A DNA stretch of 64,000 nucleotides from an uncultured Candidatus Saccharibacteria bacterium (GCA_964398205.1 CAYNLU010000002.1:1004-65003); one strand, 5' to 3'. Positions 2,677 to 17,335 are shown, counted from the stretch's first letter. Notes: generated by a model from the letters alone, not told the origin. A program made the numbers and translations.

Positions 2677-4005
2677 TTATGCTACCAATGTAATTTTCTT
2701 CTCTTTCAGTATCAATCTACTCCTCAAATGTCCCATCAGTTCACGCTTCTCCAGTGGCGTTCCTTCTCTCAGCACATACTTTGCATACTCTCTGGTATTA
2801 ACATCATCCTCGTTGATTGAGTATTTGGGTGTACCTTTAGTTGCAAGTCTCTGGAGTCGATTGAATCTTTTAATCTCTTCTTCTAGCTTCATTCTCATTC
2901 CCAGTTCGTTGATACTGACTTTGTCTATGACTTTAAATAGTTCCTCGATCAGTTCTTCCTCTCGTATATACTTGTTCTTGCAATTCCTGTCTCTCGCCTT
3001 TGAGCAGGAATAGTAGACGTACTTGGCGGTCGTACCATCTTTGAGTTCCTTGTACTTCTCTTGTGCCGTTATTCCTGATTCGCACATTCCACAGGTGAAG
3101 AGTTTGGTAAATGCGAACTCTCGATTTTCTCTCACGATTCTGTCTCGCTTTAATTGCTCTTGGGCTTTTTCAAACAGCTCTTGAGTAATGATCGGCGTAT
3201 GGCTTCCTTGATACCAGTTATCGCTATTCCGTGGATACTCGAATGGTCCATAATAGATGGGCATATTGAAGATACGATAAACCCCTGAGAGCGTCAGGGG
3301 TTTATTTCCTCGGGTATAGAAGTTCAGATCAAATCGTAACCAATTGTATACTTTTCTTCCGCTCCACTTTTCGTACACCACTTTCTCAAACATTTTCTTG
3401 ATGATTGGTGCTCGTTCTGGATCAATTACTATTTGGCACTTCCTATCCATGAGTTTCTGATTCAGGTATCCAAGCGGTGCCATTCCAGGCCATAATCCCA
3501 TCTCCACTCTCGTTCGCAATCCTCGCTTCACATTGATGCCTCGATTATCATTCTCAAGTTTCGCTTGGCTTCCTAATATCATGAGGAGAAATTTCTCATT
3601 CGGATTGTTTCCAAATGTCTGCCCGAAAGTTCTTATCATATGCAATTTACCTGCATCCATCAGGTCTACGATTTTTCCAAGGTCACCTGCATTTCTTGAA
3701 ATACGATCTGGTGCCCAAGTCAGTATTGCATTGAACTTCTCTTGCTTGAGTTCCTCAATGATTTCGTTGAAGACTGGTCGCTGTCCTGTTTCCTTTGCAC
3801 TATGACTCTCACGCTTCATGGTGACCACTTCAAGCCCCTCACGATCTGCCAACTGGAGCATTTCGCTTATCTGGCTATCAATACTCAATACTTGCCGTTC
3901 CTCAGATTCTGTCGATTTTCTTGCGTACAGGCAGTATTTGATCTTCTTTGGTTCGATTACTACTTTCGCTACACCTTGCTCTAGGTTTGGGTTTTCTATC
4001 TTCAT
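2677..4005 (-). mobile_element. large serine recombinase (resolvase/integrase)
   Basis: 442 aa. N-terminal resolvase catalytic domain (YARKSTESEERQ...SIDSQ), central recombinase domain, C-terminal Cys cluster (CGMCESG...YYSCSKARDRNC). Confidence 0.85.
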
Positions 4006-4030
4006 ACCTACATTGATGACGCAACTCGTC

Positions 4031-4393
4031 CTAGGAGTCTAGTGCGTCCCGAGTGCTATCTGTTGGTAACTCAAAGGGGTCAAAATCCTCAATTTCTTTC
4101 CTGAGCCTGTCCATGTTTTTTAGAACTGTTTTATATATTTTTGATATTTCCTTTATCTTTTTTTCATCTAAATTCTCATCACACTCTTCTAAAAAATCGA
4201 CGAGATCATCGTCGATAAAGGATGCCAGTGATATGTATGCCCCGACCAACAACTGTATCCTTTCCTTGATGGCTCGTTTCAAATGCTTTTTTGATTCAGG
4301 AAGAGAAGAGATACGGTTAAAAGGCGTACTTCCGTTCGGTTCGTGATATTTGAAATGCTTGCTGGCATCTATTATTGCTTCAATGTCTTCCAC
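4031..4393 (-). CDS. hypothetical acidic protein
   Basis: 120-aa ORF between recombinase and helicase. No motif recognised. Confidence 0.3.
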   Translation of the reverse strand: MEDIEAIIDASKHFKYHEPNGSTPFNRISSLPESKKHLKRAIKERIQLLVGAYISLASFIDDDLVDFLEECDENLDEKKIKEISKIYKTVLKNMDRLRKEIEDFDPFELPTDSTRDALDS

Positions 4394-4515
4394 ATTTCAA
4401 TGAATGACGCTGATCTTCGTAGAAGTCTAGGGTATCTCCAATTGGCAACTACGCCCTTATATCTCAGTCTTTTTATCTGTCAATTCTGGTGCAGAAATGG
4501 TAAAATCAAATAGCT

Positions 4516-7500
4516 ATGACTACAGTAAAAAACCGTCCAAATGAAACTTCTGCCGAAGTTTTGAGTCCAAATATAAAAGTTTTGAGAGAGTACGAAAAAA
4601 AGATTGTTGATCTTACTCGACGAAACCGTCTCTTGAAATACCCCGCAAAAGCTCGGGCTATTTCTTTTAAAATGAACATCTCTGATTTTGAAGAGAGTTT
4701 CGGTTCTGCTGAAGAAATAGAGATTGAGTTTCCGCATAAAGCAATTCTTCGCGAAGAGGAAGAAGTGGTAGAGGATGCTGAAAAGGATTCATCTATTCCG
4801 CCTACAGACGTTCAAGGTAAAAAGCTTATAACGATGCTTCAAGCTTTGAGGCTTGATAGTAAAAAGAAATTTGAAGAACATGGACTCCATACTCTATACC
4901 TCACGATTGGTCGTGTGCGTTGGAAAGAACCAGGAAATGGTCGTGGCTCAGAAGGAGCACTAGAAGAAAAAGACTATGACTACGATGCCCCACTTCTTCT
5001 TATTCCTGTTTCAGTTGAAGAAACAAAATCTACGCCAAAGAAAACAATAATCAGAACGTATTTAGAAGCGAATGATATTGTTTTTAATCCTGTACTACTT
5101 TTACTCTCTGAATTGGAATACGGGGTTCAGATTTCTGGGATACCCTCATTTGAAGAAATCACCAGTCTCTCTGGGGCATTCGATTCACTTGTCAAAATAT
5201 TAAAAAAATCATTTGCAGAATCTAAAATTAAAAATGATATCACTGACGATATTCGTATCGGTCAGTACTCTTTTTATGGTCAACAAATATACGAAGATCT
5301 AAGAAATAATGAAGAAGCAATTTGTGAACATGAATTTGTTGATGGTCTTATCGGCAAAGGTTCTATCATTCAAGAAGGTTTACCGTCAGACTCACAACCC
5401 GATGATCTTTTGGCTGTTGAAGAAGACTTCACTGTTCTAGATGCCGATGTAAGCCAGATGCGAGTTATTCAGAAAGCTGTTCAAGGTAACAGTCTTGTTG
5501 TTCAAGGTCCTCCTGGAACAGGAAAAAGTCAGACCATCGTTAACCTTGTTTCTAACTTACTTGCTCGTGGCAAAAAAGTACTCGTTGTCTGTGAAAAACA
5601 GGTTGCTCTTGAAGTTGTTTTTAAACGTCTCAAAGATAAAGGACTCGACAAGCTTTGTCTGCCACTTTTTTATCAGAACGCTGATAAAAAAACATTCGCG
5701 AAATCTGTTATAAACGATAGAGACTTTCTAATTGAAGCCTATGGACATAGTAGTTCTAGTGATGATACGGCTCTTGAATTGCGTGAAGGTGTCCATACAA
5801 AACTATGGAATTACGCATGTTCACTGGCTACTGTTGTTGAACCACTCAAGCGATCAGTTCAATGGGTTCACGGAGAGCTTGCTAAAGCACAAGCACTTAA
5901 CTCTGATCGGGCAATACCATGGGGAGAAAGTAATCCACTAGTTATTACTGAGGACACGTATCGGAAAATTCTTACGATTTTGGAAGCTGTTTCTCCAGTC
6001 CTCCACAAGATTTCTGATCCAAAATTTTCAGCATGGAGTCAAATACAAAAAGAAAATTTCTCTCCTGACTTCGCAAGTAGAGTTCGAGTCGTACTTGAGG
6101 ATGCTCATTCTGCGATTGCCGAACTTAATTCTCTACAACCCGAATCAATAGGCTTGGATACAATTCAAGGTCTGCAAAAGAATATGGAGACTGTTGAAAA
6201 ATTGGCACAGTTTGAAACTAGCTTATTGCCAATACCACTACGAGATGAAGTCATTCTTAGTGCTGGAATTCAGATTTTAAAACAAACGGTTGAAGTTATT
6301 TCTGCCTATCAAAAACTTACCGAGAGTTTTGGGGATATCTATAAAGTGCCTACTGTATGGTCTTTGAGTAAGCTAGATGTCCAGTCCGTAAATGACGAGC
6401 GTGAAATTAAAGAGATTCGCACCGCACTCGATTCTGCATCTAAAATTGAAGCGATCCTGTCTTCCTTATATTCAAATGTAGAGGCTTGCAAGAACGACGA
6501 TCTCTTGAATTTACCTATTGCTGAATTAATTCATTATCGAAATATTTTAATTCTCGATCCACTTATTATTGGAATAAAGGATTGGAGCGAAGCATCATCA
6601 TTACAGGCTTCTCTTGGATCACTTACAACATTACAAGCTATTTACCGTAAACTTGAAGAAGCAAATGCGGTATTTGAAAAATGGGCAATTATTCGTGAAA
6701 ACTTAAATAAAGAAGATGTCGAAAAAGTATTTACTGAATTTAATAAAAGGTATCATAAATACCTACATTTTTTCTCCCGTGATTATAGGGCAACTAAAGC
6801 GATAGTTTCAGATTGGTGCAACCTCAATACACCGAAAAAGTATGTAGATATTAATCAAGTTGTTTCTGCTGTACGCGACAGCCAAAACCTTGAAGAAAAA
6901 TTAGGTATTCTTCTTGCTCAATTTAACGAGAAGTACATTGTTTCAGGTAAATCAATAACGGTACACGAAATTCCAATTCTTTCAGGTAGTGCAAAGAATC
7001 TCAGCGAATGGATGCGTCAAGAAAATAAGAGCGAACTCCCTAGTCATCTAAAGCAGGTTGTCGAGAAAAACAGTAGTCCTCGTGCAACGAAAGCTTTTAG
7101 CGATTCGTTAAAAGATTTGGAGGTAGTACTCAGTAGTCATTGGAGCATATTCAGTGTATTTTCTGATCTTGATCGTGTCTCAATTGCAAATGTCGCTTCT
7201 AAATTTGGAGAGCTGACAGAAAATGCTCAGAGCATAATTTCTCTCGAAGAGATTGTGGAAAATTTCTTGATAAAGAATGATTCTTCTCGAACTTTTGGTT
7301 CTCTCAAGAAAGATGTCCAGAATCTTAACCAACTCAAAACATGTTTAGACAAGATTGATCCAGATATTTTCAGCTTATTTACAGAAGAGGAAAATCCCGC
7401 CTCGCTTATAAATAAACGTAAGTCTCTGGAAAAGAATATCCTTGAACTTGAGGATCTCCTCTGGCATATTTCAAAATTGTCTAATTATCAAGGTGATATT

Positions 7501-9417
7501 TCACTAAGTGATTCGATACAATTAACCACAGAAGCAAAAGCAAAACTTGATAAATGGAAGTCAGCACTCACAAATTACGAAAAGCACGCTTCGGCTTTAA
7601 ATAAGCTGTTTGAGAATGAGCAAAGTTTAGCAATCCTTGAACCTCTAAAAATTGAGACATTTCAGGAAAAATTATCGGAAATGATCCAAGACCAAGAAGG
7701 TCTTGAAGCATGGATGGAATATCGTCGTTATTCGCACCAGATGAAAGATCTAGGTTATTCTTGGTTTTTGGAATCAGTTAAGGGTAGCGATATAAAAAAT
7801 CCAGCAGCTTTGTTTGCTGAATCACTTTGGAATTCTTGGCTTGAAAATTACTATCGTACCGATCCTGATCTGCGAGATTTCAATGTAAGTGAACACAAGA
7901 AAACTATCGAAGAGTTCCGCAAACTTGAGAAGCGTGTACTTGATGTTAATGCGAAACGAATACTCCAAAGAATTGCTCCTGAGATTAAAAAAGTGAAAGA
8001 GCGTCGTGGTGAGCTTGAACGCTTCTTGCTTCACCAAAGCCAACTCCAAAAGCAACACAAACCCGTTCGACAGGTTGTTATGAAGTGTACTTCTCATATA
8101 CAGCAATATAAGCCTTGCTGGATGATGAGTCCTTTGACACTGAGTTCATATATTCCATATGGCTCACTCGATTTCGATACGGTTATTTTCGATGAAGCAT
8201 CACAGATGCGTGTTGAACATGCTCTTGGTGCAATTGCTCGTGGAAAGCAAGTCATTATTTTTGGTGACGAACATCAACTTCCTCCAACATCTTTCTTTGA
8301 CGTAGCTTCAGATTCAGATGACGATTCTGAGGATGTCGAAGAACAAGATTATGAAAGTATCCTTCATGCCGCACGAACCGTTCTTCCTGAATCAAGCGAT
8401 TCTCTCTTATATCACTATCGCAGTAAGTACGAAGATCTTATTGCGTTCTCAAACTGTGAAGTGTATAAGGATCGCCTTATTACTTTCCCAAATCCAGATC
8501 ATTCAAGTCGTGGGGTTCAGTTCGAGTATGTTGAGGACGGTATATTCGATGGTGGGATCAAAAAGGAAGGTCATGCGGGAACCCGTCGTAATGATATCGA
8601 AGCAAAACGCGTCGTTGAAATGTGTGCCCAGTCTGCGACTGACTACCCAGACAAGTCCATTGGTGTGATTGCATTTAGTAAATCTCAAGAGGTGGGTATC
8701 AGAGACGCGATGATCGAGTTTCTTAAAACACACCCTGAACTTCAGGAAAAATTAAACGAAGATCAAGACGGTAGCGATGCGTTTTTCATTAAGAATCTTG
8801 AATCTGTACAAGGAGATGAACGAGATATTATCGTACTCTCTATTGGATATGGTAAAGATAAAAATGGCAACTTCTTCAATCGTTTTGGTCCTATCAATAG
8901 CGTCACTGGCTACAGACGTTTGAACGTAGCAGTAACTCGTGCAAAAGAAAAGTTGATTTGCGTATCTTCTTTTAAATCGACTGAAATGAAAGCTGGCGAA
9001 ACTTCGCGAGGTGCAAAAATGCTACAGAAATATTTGGATTATGCTGAAAATGGCGTTAAGACTCTCGACGGTAGCCGTCTTGTCGTTGCAGGAGAGGATG
9101 TTGAAGCTGATAGTCCATTTGAACTGGAGGTTAAACGAGCACTTGAGGAACGCGGTTATGAAGTTAGAAAACAGATTGGTGTATCAGGTTTTAAAATCGA
9201 CTTGGCAATCATCAATCCTAAGACTGGGACTGACTACATTCTTGGAATCGAATGCGATGGTGCATCGTATCACTCTTCATACTCTGCTCGAGTAAATGAT
9301 CGTTTGAGAGAAGATATTCTTAGAAGACTCGGTTGGGATATATATCGTGTTTGGTCTCAACATTGGATTTCACACAAGGAAGCAATAATCGAGGATATTA
9401 TCAAAACAATCTCATAA
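4516..9417 (+). CDS. DUF4011-type Upf1/DNA2-like SF1 helicase with C-terminal Vsr/DUF559-like endonuclease domain (HheA-like)
   Basis: 1633 aa. Walker A GPPGTGKSQT, Walker B VIFDEASQM, motif VI LNVAVTRAKEKLI. C-terminal ~110 aa (ELEVKRALEERGY...KIDLAI...GIECDGASYHS...R) has the restriction-endonuclease-like DUF559/Vsr signature. Confidence 0.8.
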   Translation: MTTVKNRPNETSAEVLSPNIKVLREYEKKIVDLTRRNRLLKYPAKARAISFKMNISDFEESFGSAEEIEIEFPHKAILREEEEVVEDAEKDSSIPPTDVQGKKLITMLQALRLDSKKKFEEHGLHTLYLTIGRVRWKEPGNGRGSEGALEEKDYDYDAPLLLIPVSVEETKSTPKKTIIRTYLEANDIVFNPVLLLLSELEYGVQISGIPSFEEITSLSGAFDSLVKILKKSFAESKIKNDITDDIRIGQYSFYGQQIYEDLRNNEEAICEHEFVDGLIGKGSIIQEGLPSDSQPDDLLAVEEDFTVLDADVSQMRVIQKAVQGNSLVVQGPPGTGKSQTIVNLVSNLLARGKKVLVVCEKQVALEVVFKRLKDKGLDKLCLPLFYQNADKKTFAKSVINDRDFLIEAYGHSSSSDDTALELREGVHTKLWNYACSLATVVEPLKRSVQWVHGELAKAQALNSDRAIPWGESNPLVITEDTYRKILTILEAVSPVLHKISDPKFSAWSQIQKENFSPDFASRVRVVLEDAHSAIAELNSLQPESIGLDTIQGLQKNMETVEKLAQFETSLLPIPLRDEVILSAGIQILKQTVEVISAYQKLTESFGDIYKVPTVWSLSKLDVQSVNDEREIKEIRTALDSASKIEAILSSLYSNVEACKNDDLLNLPIAELIHYRNILILDPLIIGIKDWSEASSLQASLGSLTTLQAIYRKLEEANAVFEKWAIIRENLNKEDVEKVFTEFNKRYHKYLHFFSRDYRATKAIVSDWCNLNTPKKYVDINQVVSAVRDSQNLEEKLGILLAQFNEKYIVSGKSITVHEIPILSGSAKNLSEWMRQENKSELPSHLKQVVEKNSSPRATKAFSDSLKDLEVVLSSHWSIFSVFSDLDRVSIANVASKFGELTENAQSIISLEEIVENFLIKNDSSRTFGSLKKDVQNLNQLKTCLDKIDPDIFSLFTEEENPASLINKRKSLEKNILELEDLLWHISKLSNYQGDISLSDSIQLTTEAKAKLDKWKSALTNYEKHASALNKLFENEQSLAILEPLKIETFQEKLSEMIQDQEGLEAWMEYRRYSHQMKDLGYSWFLESVKGSDIKNPAALFAESLWNSWLENYYRTDPDLRDFNVSEHKKTIEEFRKLEKRVLDVNAKRILQRIAPEIKKVKERRGELERFLLHQSQLQKQHKPVRQVVMKCTSHIQQYKPCWMMSPLTLSSYIPYGSLDFDTVIFDEASQMRVEHALGAIARGKQVIIFGDEHQLPPTSFFDVASDSDDDSEDVEEQDYESILHAARTVLPESSDSLLYHYRSKYEDLIAFSNCEVYKDRLITFPNPDHSSRGVQFEYVEDGIFDGGIKKEGHAGTRRNDIEAKRVVEMCAQSATDYPDKSIGVIAFSKSQEVGIRDAMIEFLKTHPELQEKLNEDQDGSDAFFIKNLESVQGDERDIIVLSIGYGKDKNGNFFNRFGPINSVTGYRRLNVAVTRAKEKLICVSSFKSTEMKAGETSRGAKMLQKYLDYAENGVKTLDGSRLVVAGEDVEADSPFELEVKRALEERGYEVRKQIGVSGFKIDLAIINPKTGTDYILGIECDGASYHSSYSARVNDRLREDILRRLGWDIYRVWSQHWISHKEAIIEDIIKTIS

Positions 9418-9431
9418 ACTTCTCAGGTAAT

Positions 9432-10931
9432 ATGCCTCTTATATCAAAAACAATATTTATTGACTCACGTAACTGTGCTAAAAATACTTGGCTCAAACTA
9501 CACAAACCTGAGCTTCTGGAGAATTTCGAACTTTCCGAATTTGAAAAGCAACTTATCGAGCAAGGTAATGAAGTAGAGTTATGTGCCCGTGGTCTTTTTC
9601 CTAATGGCGTTGAAGTTATAAGTAAAGGTGAAAATGCATGTCTTGAAACAAGAAAATTGATGGAGGCAAAAACTCCAGCTATTTTTCAAGCTACATTTAT
9701 TGCTGATGGCTTTATTGCTCGAAATGACGTTTTGGTTTATGAACCAAAAAATGATTGCTGGGATCTATATGAAATTAAAGGAACAAATTCTCTCAAAGAG
9801 GGTTCTGACGAGAGAAGTCATGTTGAAGATCTTACATTTCAAGCAATAGTCTTAAAACGCTCAGGTGTTAACCTAGGACGTTCATTTTTAATTCACTTGA
9901 ATAAAGAATACGTACGAACTAGCGGTCTTGATATTGACCAGTTATTTACAATTGAAGATCTTACTGAAACCGTAGCTCAAAGATTTGATGAAATGAGTAT
10001 TTTAATGGAAGGGTCACGTGAGTTTCTCAACCAAGAAACAGAACCTGCGAGTGGTTGTGATTGTCATTATCTAGGACGAAGTAGACATTGTGCCACATTT
10101 CAGTACTCCCATCCCGAAGTGCCAGAATATTCAGTTCATGATCTTTCACGTATTGGAAGTAGTAAAAAGAAGATGGAGTTTTTTGTCGATAATAGTATCT
10201 ACAGTCTTGATGATATCCCTACTGATTATGAGTTGTCTCCCATTCAAACCAACCAATTACAAGCTCATCGAACTAAGACTCCAACTATCGATTTGAGTGA
10301 AGTCAGAAATCAGCTTAGTGTCTTGGAATTTCCTCTATATTTCTTAGATTACGAGACATATGCTCCAGCGATTCCACAGTTTGTGAATTATAGCCCTTAT
10401 AAGCGGATACCATTCCAATTTTCACTCCATATTTTACGTGAACCAAATGGCGGAGTTGAGCATGTTGATTTTCTTCATCCTGAACGTACCGATCCATCAG
10501 AATTGGTCGCGCAACTTTTGACTAAGCATATCCATCCCAAAGGTACAGTTATTTCGTGGAACAAGTCGTTTGAGAAAGGAGTTAATTCTGACATTGCAGA
10601 GCGTCTTCCTGAACATCGAGAAGCAATGGAACGTATAAATAATCAAATGTATGATTTGAAGGATATTTTTTCAAAGCAGTATTACGTTCATCCAGATTTT
10701 CAAGGAAGTGCCTCGATCAAAAAAGTATTGCCAGCCTTAATTCCTGACTTAAACTATAGTGACTTAGTTATCCATGAAGGCGGTCAAGCCTCTGAACAGT
10801 GGTGGTTCATGGTTGCACCAGACACAAGCAAGGAAGAACTTGAGGATATTTCTAAAAATCTTAAAATTTATTGTGGTCTTGATACTTATGCTATGTACGC
10901 AATTTGGAAGCACCTTTATGAAAAAATCTAG
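9432..10931 (+). CDS. DUF2779-like two-domain nuclease: N-terminal RecB/Cas4-like PD-(D/E)xK, C-terminal DnaQ-like 3'-5' exonuclease
   Basis: Start moved to ATG 9432 (MPLISK...), 14 nt after the helicase stop. DVLVYEP...DLYEIKG (D...ExK), Cys cluster CDCHYLGRSRHC, then FLDYETY (DxE) and YCGLDTYAMY (Yx3D). Confidence 0.55.
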   Translation: MPLISKTIFIDSRNCAKNTWLKLHKPELLENFELSEFEKQLIEQGNEVELCARGLFPNGVEVISKGENACLETRKLMEAKTPAIFQATFIADGFIARNDVLVYEPKNDCWDLYEIKGTNSLKEGSDERSHVEDLTFQAIVLKRSGVNLGRSFLIHLNKEYVRTSGLDIDQLFTIEDLTETVAQRFDEMSILMEGSREFLNQETEPASGCDCHYLGRSRHCATFQYSHPEVPEYSVHDLSRIGSSKKKMEFFVDNSIYSLDDIPTDYELSPIQTNQLQAHRTKTPTIDLSEVRNQLSVLEFPLYFLDYETYAPAIPQFVNYSPYKRIPFQFSLHILREPNGGVEHVDFLHPERTDPSELVAQLLTKHIHPKGTVISWNKSFEKGVNSDIAERLPEHREAMERINNQMYDLKDIFSKQYYVHPDFQGSASIKKVLPALIPDLNYSDLVIHEGGQASEQWWFMVAPDTSKEELEDISKNLKIYCGLDTYAMYAIWKHLYEKI

Positions 10932-11213
10932 CTGTTGGTAACCGCACTACACAATAATCTCAATGTAAGCTACAGTACAAAAATACCCTTGAAAATGGTA
11001 TAATTCGTTTACAATTTAATAATAGACCTAACCCCTCAATTTATTGAGGATATGGTCGCCAAATCCGTCCAAAGTAAAGAACTCCTAGTCAGAGTCTACT
11101 TTGGACGGTCATATCTGGAAACGGGTATGGGTATACCTCACGGGGTATATCGGATCTGGCTGGGAGCTTTTTGCTACCTATACGATCCTTCATAACAAAA
11201 CCGTCCAAAGTTT

Positions 11214-11675
11214 ATGAATAAAAAATCACATAGTGAAGAAGTATGGGGCAAAGTCCTCAGTGCACACGAAGAAGTTAAGTACGAGTTCTCAGTCGGAAAG
11301 CAGTATATCAATACATACATTATCATCTGGGCGATCATCAGTTTGCCGTTCGTCTTTGCTGTCGTAGGAATTTTCATATTCCTCATCGCATTCTTGTATT
11401 TGAAGTTCTACTTGCCTAAGGCAAACATCTACGGATTTACCGACAAGCGAGTACTGATCCATCGTGGATTTTTCTCAACTAACTTAATCAGCGTTGACTA
11501 TAAGCAGATCACTGATGTTACTGTCCGTGAATCATTTTTAGATAAGACATTCACAAAAAGCGGACAGTTGTTCATCAACACCGCAGGAACAAGTAAAGAA
11601 GAAATCGTCTTGAGCCACATCGCTCATCCGTACGAGGTTAAAAAGAAGCTCGACGAGTTGAGGGATAATCACTAA
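11214..11675 (+). CDS. bacterial PH-domain (bPH_2/YdbT-like) membrane protein
   Basis: 153 aa. Two hydrophobic helices, then GFTDKRVLIHRGFFSTNLISVDYKQITDVTV...GQLFINTAG typical of bPH_2. Confidence 0.5.
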   Translation: MNKKSHSEEVWGKVLSAHEEVKYEFSVGKQYINTYIIIWAIISLPFVFAVVGIFIFLIAFLYLKFYLPKANIYGFTDKRVLIHRGFFSTNLISVDYKQITDVTVRESFLDKTFTKSGQLFINTAGTSKEEIVLSHIAHPYEVKKKLDELRDNH

Positions 11676-11687
11676 TTGATTCTGAAA

Positions 11688-13169
11688 TTACAATAGTTTT
11701 TTAAACTCAGCAGAATATAATTCTGTTATTTCAGCTACGCTGTCGTCGGCATCAAGATTAAATGTAAAGTTAGCCTCGATAATATCGAGAACATAGAGCA
11801 ATGATTTCTCGGTGTATAGATGCTCTGTTACGGTATCTATTAGTTTACTGAGACTATGATTTAGTAGATCAACTTCTTCTTTGTATCGTTCAAAAAACTC
11901 ACTATAGTTCTCGGTCATATCAATATCAAATATAGTCGATGGTTTTTGAGCCAGATTTTTAAATTCGCAGAGTGTCTTATAGTTCTTAACTGGACTTGCG
12001 TGCTTCTTTGTAAAGAGAAACATATTTGCAAGAGGTAGCAGTACTTCAATCTGTTCTTTATACTCCTGCACAAAATTAACCTCTTCTTTGCAGGTATATA
12101 AATTAGTCCCAGTTATTATCTCTACCACTCTTGGCATTCCCAAGAAATCTTTTTCAAGATTTTGTTTTACCAACTTGCCAGTATCAAATAGCTTTTGAAA
12201 ATACTTTTTGGACTTTTGCAGTTCTGTATACCAAGCCATGAACAAATCCTTGTGACTCTTTTTAGTATTACCATTCCATGTGTCAAAACGCTCACTCATA
12301 CTGAGTGGTGAATATTCATTTACGAATAAGCCATCATCTAGCCACCGAGATAGAGTTTCTTTGACCAATAGCTCAATACTCATGTTTTTACTTTTTGCAT
12401 ATTCTTCCACTATCGACAATATGTTTTCTTCGGTAGCATCGTGTGAAATATGTGTATCGTAAGCTAATTTAAAAAATACATCTTTTATTGGTAGCTCCGC
12501 AAAAAAGTGATGGAGTAAAAACCCGCCTTTTTCCGCCATGGTATTTCTTATTTTCTTCGCTCCGTCATAGTACATACAGGAATAGATACGACTGACAATC
12601 AAGTCTTTCTCCTCCTTACTGAGTTTGTTGCTATCCTTGAATCGTTCATAGAGAAAGACCTGGTCTTCCAAGTATTTGGAATCACTAGCAACCGTATCGT
12701 CAAGGAGAAGTAGGTCTTCTTGTGTTTCTTTTGGTAGGTTATTAAATGTGAATATGTGTAACAGTTTTTGATACTCAAAATAAGTAGATTCTGTAAGCAG
12801 TTTGATACTTTCTTCCTCTGGAATATCTTTTGTGAATTGTTGCATTGCTACCCCCTGAAAGCTTCTTGTACCAGAAAGAAAACTATCAAGCACTCTCTGG
12901 TTTCGTAACAGTGATAGCTCTGACCGATACAAAAACATCTGAGCATCCATTTTCATAGAATTCTCTAGTTGAACAATCTTTATGTATCGGTTGTATTCCT
13001 TTACTTCGAGGGTACGAGGACTCCATGCTTGAGTCAAAACATAGATATCAGAATCAGATAGTGCACCTTTGCCGTTCTTTTCTCTGTAAATATCGTTATG
13101 GACAAGTGCAGTCACTCGCTCAAGCGGTGTGATATTTGATCTTCTAAGTAAATCACTTAAGTTTTTCAT
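11688..13169 (-). CDS. hypothetical 493-aa protein, last gene of the methyltransferase operon
   Basis: No catalytic motif recognised. Tightly packed with upstream genes (2-nt gap). Confidence 0.4.
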   Translation of the reverse strand: MKNLSDLLRRSNITPLERVTALVHNDIYREKNGKGALSDSDIYVLTQAWSPRTLEVKEYNRYIKIVQLENSMKMDAQMFLYRSELSLLRNQRVLDSFLSGTRSFQGVAMQQFTKDIPEEESIKLLTESTYFEYQKLLHIFTFNNLPKETQEDLLLLDDTVASDSKYLEDQVFLYERFKDSNKLSKEEKDLIVSRIYSCMYYDGAKKIRNTMAEKGGFLLHHFFAELPIKDVFFKLAYDTHISHDATEENILSIVEEYAKSKNMSIELLVKETLSRWLDDGLFVNEYSPLSMSERFDTWNGNTKKSHKDLFMAWYTELQKSKKYFQKLFDTGKLVKQNLEKDFLGMPRVVEIITGTNLYTCKEEVNFVQEYKEQIEVLLPLANMFLFTKKHASPVKNYKTLCEFKNLAQKPSTIFDIDMTENYSEFFERYKEEVDLLNHSLSKLIDTVTEHLYTEKSLLYVLDIIEANFTFNLDADDSVAEITELYSAEFKKLL

Positions 13170-13170
13170 A

Positions 13171-13368
13171 TCATCTGTTTTTTCTTAATGCGTTTTCCAA
13201 GAACTCGACCCGTTCTTTAAGTTCTGTGTTGGCTATATTCTTTGAAAGCGTAGAAGTAAGCTTGGCAATCATAGATGCCTGCTTGAGTGACATTTCCTTA
13301 TTCATCACTTTGCGGATAGTATCCGAAAGAATATTATTTATTTCTTCTAGGTTAATTGGTTTAGTCAT
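13171..13368 (-). CDS. hypothetical small protein (65 aa)
   Basis: ORF within operon, 1-nt spacing to neighbours. Confidence 0.35.
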   Translation of the reverse strand: MTKPINLEEINNILSDTIRKVMNKEMSLKQASMIAKLTSTLSKNIANTELKERVEFLENALRKNR

Positions 13369-13369
13369 A

Positions 13370-13744
13370 CTAGTTATTTTCTACGATTTCAAACCAAGCC
13401 CTTACTTCATGAGCCTTGCCACTTTTAATAATGTTTTTGTAGAGTGCAAAAATGACATTCGGAGTTAGTTTTCTTGCCCATGAGTTGATGTCTTTGACTA
13501 GTCCATCTTTCTCAAGTCTCTTATTCCAATCAGTGAGCGTGCCAGTATCAATCTTGTATATTTTTGAGAATTCAAGCTGTGTCTTTATCGCAAGCAATTC
13601 AAATACTGACTCTTCTTCAACACCGAACTTTTCGAGTGCTACTCTTGGTTGCCCTTTAAGAAACGAAGGAAGGGACTTCCAAAGAGCATAGGTTTCGTAG
13701 ACCTGCTTTTTATATGGATCTTTAGAAAAATCTTCTTCCTGCAT
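13370..13744 (-). CDS. small HTH-containing protein (phage terminase-small-subunit-like / DNA-binding)
   Basis: 124 aa. Putative helix-turn-helix around KIYKIDTGTLTDWNKR. Confidence 0.35.
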   Translation of the reverse strand: MQEEDFSKDPYKKQVYETYALWKSLPSFLKGQPRVALEKFGVEEESVFELLAIKTQLEFSKIYKIDTGTLTDWNKRLEKDGLVKDINSWARKLTPNVIFALYKNIIKSGKAHEVRAWFEIVENN

Positions 13745-13751
13745 ATATCAC

Positions 13752-14501
13752 TTAAAGCTTTACTGCTGTCTCGCCAGTAAGCTTTTCAAGCCTTGTGAGA
13801 GATGTTTGCACATACGCCTCATCAAGCTCTATGCCGATACACTTTCGACCCAAGTGTGCACAAGCGACAGCAGTTGAACCACTTCCCAGAAAGGGGTCAT
13901 ATACAACATCACCAACTCTCGTTGAGTTAGGAATTATTTTTCTCAATAACCCAATTGGTTTTTGCGTAGGATGAAGGTTAGATTTATGTGGTCTAGGATG
14001 ATAGATAACATTTCTTGCTTTAGACTGTTCCATTTTGTGTTTACCAAACCATCCATAGGCAATGAGTTCGTACATAGACAAATAGTCTTTTCTGCTCATG
14101 ACTGGTTGATTTTTCAGCCAAATAATCATCTGACTGTAATAGAAACCAGCGGACTTCATACCCAAGCGTAAACTTGGAAACATTAGATCGGCATTAAAGA
14201 TATAGACCGTGTTGTACTCTTCTAGGTGCGGGATAGTCGCACCTAAATACTTACTAGTAAATTGCTCGTATTCTTCTTCTGATTGTAGGTGGTCATTGGC
14301 AATAACTTTTTCATTCTTAACGCCGAGTTTTGAGAATCCTATTTTATTTTCTACATAAGCAACGCCATACGGAGGATCAGTCACAACCGCTCGTATTTTA
14401 TTGTTTCCTATAACTTTTGCGACAAAGGCATTGTCTAGAGAATCGCCACAACCGATAATGTGATCACCAATCTTAAAAATATCTCCTTTATTTATTTTCA
14501 T
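13752..14501 (-). CDS. DNA methyltransferase, beta-class N6-adenine/N4-cytosine (PF01555-like)
   Basis: 249 aa. DPPYGVAY (motif IV) precedes DPFLGSGSTAVAC (motif I). Confidence 0.8.
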   Translation of the reverse strand: MKINKGDIFKIGDHIIGCGDSLDNAFVAKVIGNNKIRAVVTDPPYGVAYVENKIGFSKLGVKNEKVIANDHLQSEEEYEQFTSKYLGATIPHLEEYNTVYIFNADLMFPSLRLGMKSAGFYYSQMIIWLKNQPVMSRKDYLSMYELIAYGWFGKHKMEQSKARNVIYHPRPHKSNLHPTQKPIGLLRKIIPNSTRVGDVVYDPFLGSGSTAVACAHLGRKCIGIELDEAYVQTSLTRLEKLTGETAVKL

Positions 14502-15756
14502 AGATTTTCTTCGCCTTAAGGTTGGTAAACTTTTCCCAACGATCTATAACAATAGTCGCAAAGAGTAGATCTTTTTCGACCCCACGCCACACACGATTTA
14601 ATTCCTCACATGCAATAAGGTCACTACCACTACCAGCGAAGCCAGAAAAGATGATGTGCCCAGGTGCAGAGCATCGCTTGAAGGGCTTTTCATTTAAAGA
14701 AATCGGTTTTTGTGTTGGGTGGAGATAGTTTTGAGTGTTATCTCTTTTAACAAGCCAAAGGTCTATCATGTCTTGCAATTCATCCAAGACCTGATTACCA
14801 GTTGTTACTTCTTGATTAAGAATTTCATTTGCATTCCTGAAGTTTGGATTTAGATATGGCTTACCAAGTGTGCCGTATGTACATGGTTCATAGAGCCTGT
14901 TCCAAGCAATTTTAGGAGTGCAGTTCTGATTCGATTTTATCCAAAGACAAACTCTTCTTTTCTTGATCTGATATTTATCGTATAGAGACTGCGTTAATCC
15001 AATGCTGTTTGGGTCTGACCAGTAAAAGAAGTGTGAGTCTGGCTTAGCAAACTTTTTAGCTGTCTCAATACTTTTACTAATGAATTCAGAGTACTCATCC
15101 TCGCTCTTATTATCTTTGTATTCTCCACCATACTTTCCTCCGTATTCCCAAGAAATATTATAGGGCGGATCACAGAAGACAATATCCGCTAGATCATCTT
15201 TCATGAGTTCTTTGACTTGATCTTCGTTGGTAGAGTCGCCAACTAAAAGGCGGTGCTTCCCGAGTTCCCAAACTTCTCCTAAATTCACTTTTGGTGCCAC
15301 TGTTTCTTTAATGGCTTTCTCAACATCAAAATCATCTTCAACAAGATCCACGTCATCAAATAGATTCTGTAATTCTTCATCTCCAAAACCAACATCAAGA
15401 AGCATGTCCATATCGAACTCTTTTAGTAGTTCTTCATCCCACGACCCAGTATTCTTATTAAGTCTCAAGTTGAGTTCTTTTTCTTCTTCGAGGGTTAGTT
15501 CTCGTGAAGGAATCATGCACTCAATTTCTTCAATACCAAGATCCGCATACACTTTTATGCGTTGTTCACCTCCAATAATAATATTGGCTCTTGAGCCGAT
15601 ATTAAGAACAATAGGCACGACCGTTCCAAATTCCTTAACAGATTTTTGCAAGTCTCTCTTTTCACTCTCACTCAACTTTCTCGGGTTGTATCCGTTATTA
15701 ATTAGGTCTACCAACTTGCGAGTAGTGCTAGACCATGTACGCTTTTGCTTAGCCAT
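14488..15756 (-). CDS. ParB-like nuclease domain fused to beta-class DNA methyltransferase
   Basis: 422 aa. N-terminal ParB/Srx-like (PIVLN...IIGGEQR), then DPPYN and FSGFAGSGSD MTase motifs. Confidence 0.8.
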   Translation of the reverse strand: MAKQKRTWSSTTRKLVDLINNGYNPRKLSESEKRDLQKSVKEFGTVVPIVLNIGSRANIIIGGEQRIKVYADLGIEEIECMIPSRELTLEEEKELNLRLNKNTGSWDEELLKEFDMDMLLDVGFGDEELQNLFDDVDLVEDDFDVEKAIKETVAPKVNLGEVWELGKHRLLVGDSTNEDQVKELMKDDLADIVFCDPPYNISWEYGGKYGGEYKDNKSEDEYSEFISKSIETAKKFAKPDSHFFYWSDPNSIGLTQSLYDKYQIKKRRVCLWIKSNQNCTPKIAWNRLYEPCTYGTLGKPYLNPNFRNANEILNQEVTTGNQVLDELQDMIDLWLVKRDNTQNYLHPTQKPISLNEKPFKRCSAPGHIIFSGFAGSGSDLIACEELNRVWRGVEKDLLFATIVIDRWEKFTNLKAKKIYENK

Positions 15757-16834: not shown

Positions 16835-17335
16835 ATGCAACAGTTTTTAGGTAATGAGTTTAATAAAGAAACCGAGGATGCGATATATTTCTATACGCCT
16901 GTATTTTATGCACTTGATAATTTCTCAGCCCACACAATAGAAATATGGGGCAAAAAATTTCAAACATCTGAACATGCGTACCAATGGAAGAAATTTATAG
17001 ATTCAAATCCTGAGATAGCTGAACAAATATTCAACGCAACAAGCCCTAACGAAGTTAAGAAAATCTCTGATATTCATAAAAGCGAAGCTTCTCGTAATTT
17101 TCCTGATTTAAAACTCAAAATAATGGAAGAAATTCTTCGAGCAAAAACTGAGCAACATGAGAAAGTTAGAATAATTTTAAAAGAAAGTGGAAACAAAACT
17201 ATTGTTGAGAATTCTCCTATAGATAGTTTTTGGGGAGTTGGTCCTGATGGAAAAGGAGAAAATGCCTTGGGCAAGCTTTGGATGAAAATAAGAGATTCTA
17301 AAAATTTTACTAATGACCCCGGTCCCTCGGCTTAA
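16835..17335 (+). CDS. NADAR-domain protein (YbiA-like N-glycosidase family)
   Basis: 166 aa. TSEHAYQWKKF and FWGVGPDGKGENALGKLWM match the NADAR/DUF1768 signature. Confidence 0.65.
   Translation: MQQFLGNEFNKETEDAIYFYTPVFYALDNFSAHTIEIWGKKFQTSEHAYQWKKFIDSNPEIAEQIFNATSPNEVKKISDIHKSEASRNFPDLKLKIMEEILRAKTEQHEKVRIILKESGNKTIVENSPIDSFWGVGPDGKGENALGKLWMKIRDSKNFTNDPGPSA

What the first reader, a model, noticed from the sequence alone, without database searches (positions are those of the whole stretch)
4516..10931. HheA-like giant helicase-endonuclease with a tightly linked second nuclease (PD-(D/E)xK + DEDD exonuclease): candidate two-gene defense module
The 1633-aa protein has a long motif-poor N-terminal region, a complete Upf1/DNA2-like SF1 core (GPPGTGKSQT, VIFDEASQM, NVAVTRAKEKL) and a C-terminal Vsr/DUF559-type endonuclease fold (EVKRALEE...KIDLAI...ECDGASYH). 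This is the architecture I recall for the single-gene Hhe (helicase + Vsr endonuclease) anti-phage system reported in the 2020 systematic defense screen. Here a 500-aa protein starts 14 nt downstream on the same strand. It has RecB/Cas4-like motifs (DVLVYEP, DLYEIKG, Cys cluster CDCHYLGRSRHC) followed by DnaQ-like exonuclease motifs (FLDYETY, WNKSF, YCGLDTYAMY). A dedicated dual nuclease partner is not part of canonical Hhe, so this may be an undescribed two-component variant. The pair sits beside a serine recombinase and orphan methyltransferases, a typical defense-island context.
Basis: partly seen in the sequence, partly recalled or inferred. Interest (0 to 1): 0.8.

Follow-up and report, generated by a model that had tools for sequence, protein, structure and literature searches.

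The report
Defence helicase-nuclease beside a dual exonuclease
A candidate-phyla-radiation bacterium carries, on a small mobile island, a giant Hhe-like helicase-endonuclease followed 14 bases later by a Cas4-like plus proofreading-type exonuclease; relatives repeat this pairing in about six of ten lineages, but the partners are freely swapped, so it looks like a loose alliance and not a fixed two-part machine.

Summary
Window 4516-9417 encodes a 1633-aa protein with DUF4011, a split Upf1-like SF1 helicase and a Vsr-like MTES_1575 endonuclease. Window 9432-10931 encodes a 499-aa DUF2779 protein. Its catalytic residues are invariant and its model is confident, with Cas4 and MGME1 as best fold matches.

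The helicase matches PADLOC's single-gene candidate PDC-S37 better than Hhe. It falls below NCBIfam's ProA and Hhe cut-offs.

A Cas4-like plus exonuclease gene is the immediate neighbour in 6 of about 10 lineages of this helicase clade. It is absent near all 88 distant DUF4011 helicases examined.

The linkage is facultative and the two gene trees disagree. Helicases 81% identical sit beside DUF2779 proteins 41% identical. DUF2779 proteins 65% identical sit beside helicases 39% identical.

In the window's closest DUF2779 relatives, restriction-modification genes occupy the helicase's slot. On plasmids of other phyla, DUF2779 sits beside other ATPases, helicases and WYL regulators.

An unreported third element, a LOOT small RNA at 11025-11151, is present in the window and lies within about 9 kb of the helicase in 5 of the 8 lineages for which DNA was held.

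Best reading: a loosely coupled defence cassette on a serine-recombinase island. Main rival: mere co-residence in that island.

The parts
2677..4005 (-). Large serine recombinase (integrase) at the left end of the mobile block
   Evidence: Pfam Resolvase + Recombinase + Zn_ribbon_recom. PHROG integrase phrog_95, 1.6e-63. It is 99% identical in L097 although the downstream backbone there is only 40-49% identical.
4031..4393 (-). 120-aa ORF of unknown function, flanked by two copies of a ~60-nt element (4012-4072 and 4399-4452). Absent from L001 and L097.
   Evidence: sequence and alignment. No significant family hit.
4477..4506 (+). Promoter-like site (CTGTCA-18-TAAAAT with TG) upstream of the helicase gene
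   Evidence: This is a consensus match only.
4516..9417 (+). 1633-aa helicase-endonuclease: DUF4011 N-domain, Upf1/Dna2-like SF1 helicase split by an ~830-aa insertion, C-terminal Vsr-like MTES_1575 endonuclease
4600..5100 (+). DUF4011 domain (aa 29-195)
   Evidence: Pfam PF13195, 2.4e-16.
5446..5637 (+). Helicase domain 1A start with Walker A GPPGTGKSQT (aa 331-340)
   Evidence: Pfam AAA_11 / AAA_19 / AAA_30. G331-T340 are invariant in 24 homologues.
8386..8970 (+). Helicase domain 2A (AAA_12, aa 1291-1485). Motif II DEAS at aa 1226-1229 lies just upstream.
   Evidence: Pfam PF13087, 3e-16. Invariant D1226, E1227, Q1230, R1467, R1468, R1475.
9118..9411 (+). Vsr-like / PD-(D/E)xK endonuclease domain (MTES_1575, aa 1535-1632)
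   Evidence: Pfam PF18741, 2.3e-32 over the whole profile; DUF559 weak. Invariant E1536, D1562, E1579, D1581, H1586, R1592, D1595.
9432..10931 (+). 499-aa DUF2779 protein. N-terminal Cas4-like PD-(D/E)xK nuclease with four conserved Cys (aa ~1-230). C-terminal DEDDy 3'-5' exonuclease (aa ~300-499).
   Evidence: Pfam PF11074, 4.2e-41. Invariant C15, D99, E114, K116, Q137, C209, C211, C220, D306, E308, D408, Y480, D484. AlphaFold model pLDDT 91.7. Top fold hits are Cas4 (7mi4_A, 4r5q) and MGME1, followed by RNase T and 3'hExo.
11025..11151 (+). LOOT small RNA gene (Rfam RF03000), with TGGTATAAT at about 10997-11005 upstream and a stem plus T-run after it. It marks the right end of the block shared with L001, L003 and L097.
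   Evidence: 81.2 bits against a gathering score of 46.4. Block boundaries. Recurs near the helicase in L012, L013, L099 and L104.
11688..15756 (-). Island backbone shared with helicase-free relatives: 493-aa ORF (its counterpart in the same position in L097 hits Terminase_6C), 124-aa ORF, N6_N4 methyltransferase, ParB_N-methyltransferase
   Evidence: These genes are 62-70% identical to L004 and L007, which carry a Type III-like restriction-modification operon in place of the helicase.

Best explanation
This is a loosely coupled defence cassette carried on a ~14-kb serine-recombinase island (about 2.7-16.8 kb) in a Paceibacteria (candidate phyla radiation) genome.

Gene 1 is a self-sufficient, Hhe / PDC-S37-type enzyme. 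Its DUF4011 domain and giant insertion presumably sense or bind foreign DNA. The Upf1/Dna2-like SF1 motor translocates or unwinds. The C-terminal Vsr-like endonuclease nicks or cuts.

Gene 2 is probably co-transcribed: the gap is 14 nt and there is no terminator. It encodes a stand-alone end-processing nuclease with two activities. The Cas4-like Fe-S domain would resect 5'->3'. The DEDDy domain would resect 3'->5'. Together they would degrade the ends or flaps that the helicase-nuclease creates, much as RecBCD/AddAB finishes restricted DNA.

The partnership is facultative and acts through DNA intermediates, not through a fixed protein complex. The helicase also occurs alone. DUF2779 also sits behind other helicase- or ATPase-based systems.

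Shown: domain content, conserved catalytic residues, operon-like spacing, recurrent adjacency, partner swapping.
Inferred: every biochemical activity, the defence role and the order of action.
For: 1. Domains and residues.

2. The helicase matches models of defence proteins. PDC-S37 gives 5.3e-291 and Hhe 5.3e-151. ProA and Hhe also hit in NCBIfam.

3. A Cas4-like plus exonuclease gene is the immediate neighbour of the helicase in 6 of about 10 lineages.
- Window group: 14-nt gap.
- L098/L099: 8-nt gap.
- L013/14: overlapping.
- L104/105: 31-nt gap.
- L106/107: convergent, 8-nt overlap.
- L102/103: convergent; the neighbour is a PDDEXK_1 + RNase_H_2 protein of the same architecture.
One given gene among roughly 1000 would be an immediate neighbour by chance about 0.2% of the time (my estimate).

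4. Helicase, DUF2779 and LOOT form one discrete 6.8-kb block (4442 to about 11225). It is 88-95% identical in three otherwise diverged backgrounds.

5. DUF2779 also sits in tight same-strand arrays behind other NTPase or nuclease genes.
- A Type III-like Res gene, 6-13 nt away.
- On plasmids: QatD and an SF1 helicase 2 nt away, a PD-(D/E)XK nuclease 2 nt away, and double-AAA ATPases 48-79 nt away with a WYL regulator 2-6 nt downstream.
Against: - The trees disagree. Window against L099: helicase 81%, DUF2779 41%. L099 against L104: DUF2779 65%, helicase 39%. This argues against a co-evolving complex.
- Three or four helicase lineages have no such neighbour.
- None of 88 distant DUF4011 helicase loci has DUF2779 within 10 kb.
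- The window-type DUF2779 nests among helicase-free orthologues. These include one in a plain housekeeping context and ones with restriction-modification genes in the helicase's slot. That pattern fits a cargo slot next to a resident gene.
- DUF2779 has no PADLOC hit.
- DUF2779 is reported as quasi-essential in a minimal Mycoplasma (PMC13621843), which suggests a housekeeping role.
- There is no experimental evidence of any kind.
Confidence: 0.45

Rival explanations
1. Co-residence without functional coupling. DUF2779 is a resident gene, either a housekeeping nuclease of Paceibacteria or a backbone gene of this island family. The slot between the serine recombinase and DUF2779 is a cargo or defence hotspot. 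The single-gene helicase system is just one of several cargoes that land there.
For: - The same slot holds a Type III-like Mod-Res operon in L004-L007. Their downstream backbone (124-aa ORF, methyltransferase, ParB-methyltransferase) is orthologous to the window's at 62-70%.
- In L008 an MvaI/BcnI endonuclease gene and a LexA-methyltransferase gene lie directly upstream of DUF2779, with no shared downstream backbone.
- The window-type DUF2779 branches ladder-like among helicase-free orthologues. One sits in a housekeeping context on a 394-kb contig.
- The gene trees are discordant.
- The helicase is often next to a serine recombinase and occurs without DUF2779.
- PADLOC's PDC-S37 and Hhe are single-gene models.
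- Core-gene-flanked defence hotspots are known (10.1101/2022.11.11.516204).
Against: - Adjacency recurs with four mutually ~40%-identical DUF2779 types and one PF13482-type analogue, in both orientations and with different mobile-element geometries. One hotspot or one integration site does not easily explain this.
- In the four co-directional cases, genes that are not recognisable housekeeping genes lie on both sides of DUF2779, and mobile-element or island genes lie nearby.
- Gaps of -1 to 31 nt leave no room for an independent promoter.
- Helicase, DUF2779 and LOOT were transferred together between backbones.
Confidence: 0.3
2. Obligate two-component defence system. The helicase-nuclease and the dual nuclease form one machine, and neither works alone.
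For: The 14-nt spacing. Recurrence of the pair in 6 of about 10 lineages. Co-transfer of the block.
Against: - Helicases 80-84% identical to the window's, with all catalytic residues intact, lack the partner.
- All four of the closest DUF2779 lineages sampled outside the near-identical contigs lack the helicase.
- Partners are swapped freely.
- Two of the six pairs are convergent, so they are not operons.
Confidence: 0.07
3. Not immunity but DNA end-resection, repair or mobile-element maintenance. An SF1B Dna2-like helicase plus a Cas4/AddB-like Fe-S nuclease and a DEDD exonuclease would act as a split Dna2/AddAB-type resection module for the host or for the island's own recombination or replication.
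For: - The helicase core's only solved relatives are Upf1, IGHMBP2, Sen1 and DNA2.
- DUF2779 folds like Cas4 and MGME1.
- DUF2779 is reported as quasi-essential in JCVI-syn3.0 (PMC13621843).
- Neighbours include RmuC and PIF1 in L104 and WYL regulators on plasmids.
Against: - The helicase is patchy, horizontally mobile and embedded among restriction-modification and CBASS-like genes, DpnI, Fic and MmeI-type genes. That pattern is typical of defence genes, not repair genes.
- Its best profile matches are defence models.
Confidence: 0.1

Closest known systems
Hhe (HheA), the single-gene helicase + Vsr endonuclease anti-phage system (Gao et al. 2020, from my own knowledge; NCBIfam NF042953; PADLOC PDLC02194)
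   Same: DUF4011 N-domain, AAA_11/AAA_12 SF1 helicase with a large insertion, and a Vsr-like (MTES_1575/DUF559) endonuclease in the same order.
   Different: It scores 707 bits against an equivalog cut-off of 2000. The match ends at profile position 1679 of 1797. No DUF3320 (PF11784) was detected, although distant relatives have it. PDC-S37 fits better. It belongs to a clade of its own found mainly in candidate phyla radiation and Dependentiae genomes (37-100% identity).
PADLOC PDC-S37 (single-gene phage-defence candidate) and NCBIfam 'anti-phage protein ProA' (NF058533)
   Same: These are the best-scoring profiles: PDC-S37 at 5.3e-291 and 967 bits, ProA at 912 bits. The architecture is the same.
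   Different: ProA's cut-off of 1500 is missed, and the match begins at position 358 of its profile (358-1703 of 1903). I found no paper for either name, so their experimental status is unknown to me. Neither model set includes a DUF2779 partner.
DUF2779 / PF11074 family, e.g. MMSYN1_0389 of JCVI-syn3.0
   Same: The same fusion of a Cas4-like PD-(D/E)xK domain with an RNase H-like 3'-5' exonuclease (PMC3985635; PMC13621843). D-E-K and DEDDy residues are conserved.
   Different: The window protein keeps four conserved Cys, as Cas4 does, whereas MMSYN1_0389 is reported to have only two. Here the gene lies on a mobile island behind a defence helicase.
Hachiman (HamA nuclease + HamB helicase) and Gabija (GajA + GajB), two-gene helicase/nuclease defence systems (from my own knowledge)
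   Same: This is a 'works like' comparison only: a helicase paired with a PD-(D/E)xK-type nuclease encoded by adjacent genes.
   Different: There is no sequence relationship. PADLOC gives no Ham or Gaj hit. Here the helicase carries its own nuclease and the partner is dispensable in relatives.
Dna2 and AddAB/RecBCD end-resection machines (from my own knowledge)
   Same: An SF1 helicase combined with a RecB/Cas4-family Fe-S nuclease. The helicase core's solved relatives include DNA2.
   Different: The functions are split over two genes, with an extra Vsr-like domain and an extra DEDDy domain. The distribution is patchy and island-borne.
Defence hotspots flanked by conserved genes, such as P. 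aeruginosa cDHS1 (10.1101/2022.11.11.516204)
   Same: Different defence cargoes (this helicase, a Type III-like restriction-modification operon) occupy one slot between conserved neighbours in related genomes.
   Different: Here the slot lies inside a small serine-recombinase island. The conserved neighbour is itself a nuclease that recurs next to the same helicase clade in unrelated contexts.

Membership tests
Hhe (HheA) | DUF4011 N-terminal domain | tested here: met
   PF13195, aa 29-195, 2.4e-16, 60.5 bits against a cut-off of 22.2.
Hhe (HheA) | SF1 (AAA_11/AAA_12, Upf1-like) helicase with intact ATPase motifs | tested here: met
   AAA_11 at 3.7e-18 and AAA_12 at 3e-16. Walker A, DEAS, Q and Arg fingers are invariant.
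Hhe (HheA) | Vsr-like (DUF559/MTES_1575) endonuclease with conserved acidic and His residues | tested here: met
   PF18741 at 2.3e-32. E1536, D1562, E1579, D1581 and H1586 are invariant in 24 sequences. Which of these are catalytic is inferred, not shown.
Hhe (HheA) | Reaches the curated equivalog score of NCBIfam NF042953 | tested here: not met
   707 bits against a cut-off of 2000. The best stretch covers profile positions 905-1679 of 1797.
Hhe (HheA) | Hhe is the best-matching defence profile | tested here: not met
   PADLOC gives Hhe 502.7 bits and PDC-S37 967.1 bits.
Hhe (HheA) | Protects against phage as a single gene | not testable with these tools
   Needs heterologous expression and phage challenge.
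PADLOC PDC-S37 | Strong match to the PDC-S37 profile | tested here: inconclusive
   5.3e-291 and 967 bits in 3 stretches. The best stretch aligns aa 1002-1632 with profile positions 716-1338 of 1550. The tool shows no curated cut-off, and no literature was found.
NCBIfam ProA (NF058533) | Reaches the equivalog cut-off over the full length | tested here: not met
   911.7 bits against 1500. Only profile positions 358-1703 of 1903 are matched.
DUF2779 (PF11074) | Pfam domain above the gathering score | tested here: met
   140.6 bits against 23.3, over profile positions 1-126 of 126.
DUF2779 (PF11074) | N-terminal Cas4-like PD-(D/E)xK domain with D..ExK and a Cys cluster | tested here: met
   D99, E114, K116, Q137, C15, C209, C211 and C220 are invariant. 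The best fold matches are Cas4 7mi4_A and 4r5q at probability 1.00, although E-values are only 2.5e-3 to 9e-3.
DUF2779 (PF11074) | C-terminal DEDD-type 3'-5' exonuclease motifs | tested here: met
   D306, E308, D408, Y480 and D484 are invariant. Fold hits to RNase T, 3'hExo and a polymerase exonuclease domain are weak. The family was assigned to the exonuclease clade in PMC3985635.
UU173 family (NF045869) | Reaches the subfamily cut-off | tested here: not met
   43.3 bits against 225.
   Present in 6 of about 10 lineages of this helicase clade. Absent from all 88 distant DUF4011 helicase loci.
   Unpaired helicases. Unpaired DUF2779 genes. Identity mismatches of 81% against 41% and 39% against 65%.
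LOOT RNA (RF03000) | Covariance-model score above the gathering threshold over the full model | tested here: met
   81.2 bits against 46.4, over model positions 1-121 of 121.

The most novel reading that the evidence does not exclude
Helicase-nuclease, DUF2779 dual exonuclease and LOOT small RNA together form a mobile, three-part immune cassette specific to the candidate phyla radiation. In this reading the orphan LOOT RNA is a functional component, for example a regulator, an antitoxin-like brake or a cofactor of the helicase. DUF2779 would be a promiscuous 'finisher' nuclease that plugs into several helicase- or ATPase-based defence systems: this helicase, Type III-like restriction-modification and Qat-like clusters. 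That would give both LOOT RNA and DUF2779 their first biological role.
Probability: 0.12. Interest if true: 0.8.

Novelty: new variant of a known kind. Interest (0 to 1): 0.5.

Why it matters
Candidate phyla radiation bacteria have tiny genomes, and none of their defence systems has, to my knowledge, been tested experimentally.

This locus suggests that their Hhe-like helicase-nucleases travel on small serine-recombinase islands. It also suggests that they are often, though not always, coupled to a Cas4-like plus DEDDy exonuclease whose family (DUF2779) has no assigned function. That family is reported as quasi-essential in a minimal Mycoplasma. Here it also turns up beside restriction-modification genes in relatives and, on plasmids of other phyla, beside Qat genes, AAA ATPases and WYL regulators.

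If the coupling is functional, DUF2779 would be a general accessory 'end-degrader' for DNA-targeting immunity in organisms that may lack RecBCD/AddAB. If it is not, the locus defines a cargo slot useful for mining new defence genes in these genomes.

The recurrent proximity of the orphan LOOT RNA to this helicase is, as far as I could find, the first reported gene association for that RNA.

Tried and rejected
- LOOT RNA pairing with the 5' end of the helicase mRNA. The idea came from AACCGTCCAAA occurring at helicase codons 5-9 and in the LOOT stem. RNAduplex energies against shuffled controls gave z from -1.6 to +0.6 in five lineages, so there is no signal.
- The 13-mer AAAACCGTCCAAA (4529-4541 and 11197-11209) and the 11-mer CTGTTGGTAAC (4060 and 10932) as att-like direct repeats. 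Matches of this length between a 360-nt region and the 64-kb window are about what chance gives. However, homology with L001 and L097 does end right after the 11197-11209 copy.
- One fixed integration site in DUF2779 for the recombinase-helicase unit. The geometry differs between lineages: 5' side, 3' side, recombinase upstream or downstream, or a tyrosine integrase instead.
- A CRISPR link for the Cas4-like gene. The window holds no repeat array.
- A phage origin for DUF2779. There is no tblastn hit in 50,697 phage records and no PHROG hit.
- Sequence search of solved structures with gene 2, alone or as a profile, found nothing.
- Literature searches for PDC-S37 and ProA found nothing. The LOOT description is not in the main text of the 2017 paper, and no supplement is held.
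- The genome-contig scan with the clade alignment used very general peptide patterns. Apart from L015 it returned only distant DUF4011 helicases, so it served as a negative control and not as a clade survey.

Full report
**1. What is at the coordinates**

Window 4516-9417 (+) is an intact 1633-aa ORF. The next gene starts at the ATG at 9432, 14 nt after the stop, and ends at 10931, giving 499 aa.

Pfam finds four domains in gene 1:
- DUF4011 (aa 29-195).
- AAA_11, beginning at aa 311.
- AAA_12 (aa 1291-1485).
- A full-length MTES_1575 restriction-endonuclease-like domain (aa 1535-1632, 2.3e-32), with a weak DUF559 hit on the same stretch.

Walker A is at aa 331-340 and motif II at aa 1226-1229. 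The 'motif-poor' region is therefore an insertion of about 830 aa inside helicase domain 1, not an N-terminal extension. The only solved relatives by sequence are the helicase cores of Upf1, IGHMBP2, Sen1 and DNA2.

In an alignment of 24 homologues (36-81% identical to the window protein), two sets of residues are invariant:
- The ATPase motifs.
- E1536, D1562, E1579, D1581, H1586, R1592 and D1595 of the Vsr-like domain.

**2. Gene 2**

Pfam gives DUF2779 (4.2e-41). PADLOC gives nothing. In 41 sequences the following are invariant:
- C15, D99, E114, K116 and Q137.
- C209, C211 and C220. With C15 and the D..ExK residues above, this is a Cas4-type set.
- D306, E308, D408, Y480 and D484, a DEDDy set.

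An AlphaFold model built on that alignment is confident: pLDDT 91.7, pTM 0.85. Its best matches among solved structures are Cas4 (7mi4_A, 4r5q) and MGME1 for the N-half. RNase T, 3'hExo and a polymerase exonuclease domain match the C-half. E-values are modest.

This architecture is already in the literature. DUF2779 was placed in the 3'-5' exonuclease clade of RNase H-like proteins and noted to co-occur with a PD-(D/E)xK domain (PMC3985635). The quasi-essential MMSYN1_0389 of JCVI-syn3.0 was described as a Cas4-like plus exonuclease fusion (PMC13621843).

**3. Which known family is the helicase?**

PADLOC's best model is the single-gene candidate PDC-S37 (5.3e-291, 967 bits). Hhe is second (5.3e-151, 503 bits).

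NCBIfam's best models are 'anti-phage protein ProA' (912 bits, cut-off 1500) and Hhe (707 bits, cut-off 2000). Both are below their curated cut-offs.

The protein therefore belongs to the DUF4011 / Hhe-like superfamily but cannot be filed as Hhe or ProA. Full-length homologues form a clade of proteins about 1630 aa long (37-100% identical). Where sources name them, they come from Paceibacterota, Gribaldobacteria, Dependentiae and Babeliales. A 99%-identical copy lies on a contig of 'Candidatus Paceibacterota bacterium isolate CTOTU14249' (L015).

**4. Is the pairing recurrent?**

I examined every context I could retrieve for helicases of this clade, choosing them by identity level and contig length.

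A Cas4-like plus exonuclease gene is the immediate neighbour in these lineages:
- The window group (window, L015, L001-3, L097): helicase 88-99% identical at DNA level, 14-nt gap.
- L098/L099: helicase 81%.
- L013/14: helicase 48%, genes overlapping, followed by an SNase gene.
- L104/105: helicase 40%, 31-nt gap, followed by a 352-aa ORF and RmuC.
- L106/107: helicase 37%, convergent, 8-nt overlap.
- L102/103: helicase 43%, convergent. The neighbour is a 505-aa PDDEXK_1 + RNase_H_2 protein, not DUF2779 itself. Its N-terminal domain aligns weakly with the DUF2779 profile.

It is absent in these lineages:
- L012/L100 (80%), where a serine recombinase and CBASS-like SAVED/SMODS genes follow.
- The P0126 contig (82%) and L096 (84%). 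Both are followed by DUF4238 and an MmeI-type enzyme, so they are possibly one lineage.
- P0151/L101 (46%).

That makes 6 of 9-10 lineages. For one particular gene among roughly 1000, immediate adjacency by chance is about 0.2% per lineage (my estimate). The association is therefore not random.

In contrast, none of 79 + 9 loci with distant DUF4011 helicases from across Bacteria, Archaea and viral contigs has a DUF2779 within 10 kb.

**5. But the linkage is loose**

Beyond the near-identical contigs, the window's DUF2779 has its closest relatives in loci without the helicase.
- L004-6 (76%) and L007 (about 63%) have a Type III-like Mod-Res operon ending 6-13 nt before DUF2779.
- L008/9 (62%) have an MvaI/BcnI endonuclease and a LexA-methyltransferase upstream.
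- L010/11 (59%) lie in a housekeeping neighbourhood on a 394-kb contig.

The downstream genes of L004 and L007 (124-aa ORF, methyltransferase, ParB-methyltransferase) are orthologous to the window's at 62-70%. These are therefore the same locus with a different cargo in front of DUF2779.

Identities are discordant:

| Comparison | Helicase | DUF2779 |
|---|---|---|
| Window vs L099 | 81% | 41% |
| L099 vs L104 | 39% | 65% |

The window-type DUF2779 nests among the helicase-free ones in the tree. Partners have thus been exchanged repeatedly. That is hard to reconcile with a co-evolving protein complex. It is compatible either with cooperation through DNA intermediates or with no cooperation at all.

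**6. The mobile context**

Window 1-16 kb has 35-40% G+C against about 30% in most of the rest of the window. Beyond about 16.8 kb the genes are housekeeping: NADAR, photolyase and ribonucleotide reductases.

Comparison with related contigs shows a mosaic:

| Compared with window | Recombinase | Helicase | DUF2779 | Downstream methyltransferases |
|---|---|---|---|---|
| L097 | 99% | 91% | 93% | 49% and 40% |
| L001 | 75% | 97% | 95% | 25-35% |

- In L097, DNA homology with the window runs from 2682 to about 11221. Its left flank matches window 34.5-36.2 kb.
- In L001, L003 and L097 the high-identity block starts at 4442 and ends at about 11221-11225.

Helicase and DUF2779, plus about 290 nt downstream, therefore moved together between different backbones. 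The whole region is a small island with a large serine recombinase (PHROG integrase) at one end.

**7. A third element**

The conserved 290 nt downstream of DUF2779 contain a LOOT RNA (Rfam RF03000) at 11025-11151, scoring 81.2 bits against a gathering score of 46.4. A TGGTATAAT box lies upstream and a stem plus T-run follows it.

LOOT also lies near the helicase in other lineages:
- L012, beside the recombinase, with no DUF2779 present.
- L013, 4 kb upstream.
- L099, 9 kb downstream.
- L104, 4.4 kb downstream.

That is 5 of the 8 helicase lineages for which DNA was held. It was found in none of the 4 helicase-free DUF2779 lineages.

I recall, from my own knowledge, that LOOT was described in 2017 as an orphan small RNA of the OD1, OP11 and TM7 lineages. 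I could not retrieve the text. A test for base-pairing with the helicase mRNA was negative.

**8. DUF2779 elsewhere**

Thirty plasmids from Campylobacterota, Proteobacteria, Cyanobacteria, Bacillota and Rhodothermota encode DUF2779 proteins 29-35% identical to the window's. No phage record does.

Of the nine plasmid contexts read, seven show it next to NTPases or nucleases, five of them in tight same-strand arrays:
- Planktothrix: SF2 helicase, HATPase_c_3, DUF2779, PLD.
- Rhodoferax and Diaphorobacter: double-AAA ATPase, DUF2779, WYL.
- Sphingobium: WYL, DUF2779, with an AAA ATPase alongside.
- Aliarcobacter cryaerophilus: QatABCD, DUF2779, a 927-aa AAA_11/AAA_12 helicase, dGTPase, with 2-nt gaps on either side of DUF2779.
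- A. butzleri: PD-(D/E)XK nuclease, DUF2779, WYL.
- Selenomonas: a looser same-strand run of NERD, AAA ATPase, metallophosphoesterase and a hypothetical gene upstream of DUF2779.

The Helicobacter and Salinibacter contexts showed nothing comparable.

DUF2779 is therefore a frequent member of variable, defence- or repair-type gene clusters in general.

**9. Synthesis**

The obligate two-component reading is unlikely (about 0.07).

Two readings remain:
- A facultative partnership. The helicase-nuclease is self-sufficient, and DUF2779 acts as a dual-polarity end-degrader that is co-transcribed here (0.45).
- Mere co-residence, with DUF2779 as a resident gene next to the island's cargo slot (0.30).

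A repair or resection role instead of immunity keeps about 0.10.

The tight spacing to different upstream partners favours coupling. So does adjacency that recurs across four DUF2779 types and one analogous family, in different element geometries. The cargo replacement in close relatives, the discordant trees and the frequent solo occurrence of both genes favour co-residence.

Every activity and the defence role itself are inferred from homology and context. Nothing here was tested experimentally.

**10. Novelty and score**

- The helicase is a diverged member, restricted to the candidate phyla radiation and Dependentiae, of a known kind (DUF4011 / Hhe-like; PADLOC candidate PDC-S37).
- The architecture of DUF2779 is published.
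- New as far as I could find: the recurrent but facultative helicase-DUF2779 adjacency, the placement of DUF2779 behind other helicase- or ATPase-based systems, and the LOOT RNA association.

I rate it a new variant of a known kind, with interest 0.5.

Noticed in passing
window 11025-11151 (+); also L012 9649-9773, L013 3815-3936 (-), L099 21029-21150 (-), L104 19328-19445: A LOOT small RNA (Rfam RF03000, function unknown) lies 94 nt downstream of DUF2779. It recurs within about 9 kb of this helicase clade in 5 of the 8 lineages for which DNA was held. It was found in none of 4 helicase-free DUF2779 lineages. The shared high-identity block ends about 60-70 nt after it.
   Followed up: partly
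L004 3093-8643, L005 5989-11539, L007 122-5668: In the closest helicase-free relatives, a Type III-like Mod (N6_N4_Mtase, ~569 aa) and Res (ResIII, ~765 aa) operon ends 6-13 nt before DUF2779. This is the same slot the helicase occupies in the window.
   Followed up: partly
L108-L116 (plasmids of Planktothrix, Rhodoferax, Aliarcobacter, Sphingobium, Diaphorobacter, Selenomonas): DUF2779 on plasmids sits beside double-AAA ATPases, SF1/SF2 helicases, PLD or PD-(D/E)XK nucleases and, repeatedly, WYL-domain regulators. In Aliarcobacter cryaerophilus it lies between QatABCD and a 927-aa AAA_11/AAA_12 helicase, with 2-nt gaps.
   Followed up: partly
window 2682-11225 against L097 2616-10771; L097 16-1765 against window 34514-36251: The recombinase-helicase-DUF2779-LOOT block is 88-90% identical at DNA level to L097 (recombinase protein 99% identical). 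The downstream methyltransferases are only 40-49% identical. The left flank of L097 corresponds to a window region 30 kb away. The block is mobile and sits at different genomic sites.
   Followed up: partly
window 4012-4072 and 4399-4452: A ~60-nt element that lies just upstream of the recombinase start is duplicated on the far side of a 120-aa ORF (4031-4393, -). That ORF is absent from L001 and L097, so it looks like a small insertion that carried its own copy of the upstream region.
   Followed up: no
window 11688-13169 (-); L097 11687-13147 (-): The 493-aa ORF has no family hit. The 486-aa ORF in the same position in L097 hits Terminase_6C (3.7e-7); tblastn detected no similarity between the two. 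L004 and L007 hold 24-30% identical genes in the same position. The island may be a phage-derived or satellite-like element.
   Followed up: no
L001 11133-12017; L013 14500-15333: A staphylococcal-nuclease (SNase) gene follows DUF2779 in two helicase lineages. In L013 it overlaps the DUF2779 stop. This is a possible further nuclease partner.
   Followed up: no
L012 12272-15735; P0126 contig; L096 5864-8847; L099 4526-6828: Other defence-type genes flank helicases of this clade. They include S24 peptidase + SAVED + SMODS (CBASS-like), DUF4238 + MmeI-type restriction-modification, Abi_C, DpnI and Fic.
   Followed up: no
window 16835-17335 (+): Just outside the island lies a 166-aa NADAR-domain protein. 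It has a weak hit to PADLOC candidate PDC-M42C (8.3e-7) and a strong hit to PHROG 1017.
   Followed up: no
L139 13023-14486 (IMG/VR contig IMGVR_UViG_3300032737_000190): One predicted viral contig carries a DUF2779 gene (495 bits to my profile) 6.4 kb from a distant SF1 helicase. GenBank phage records have no DUF2779 hit.
   Followed up: no
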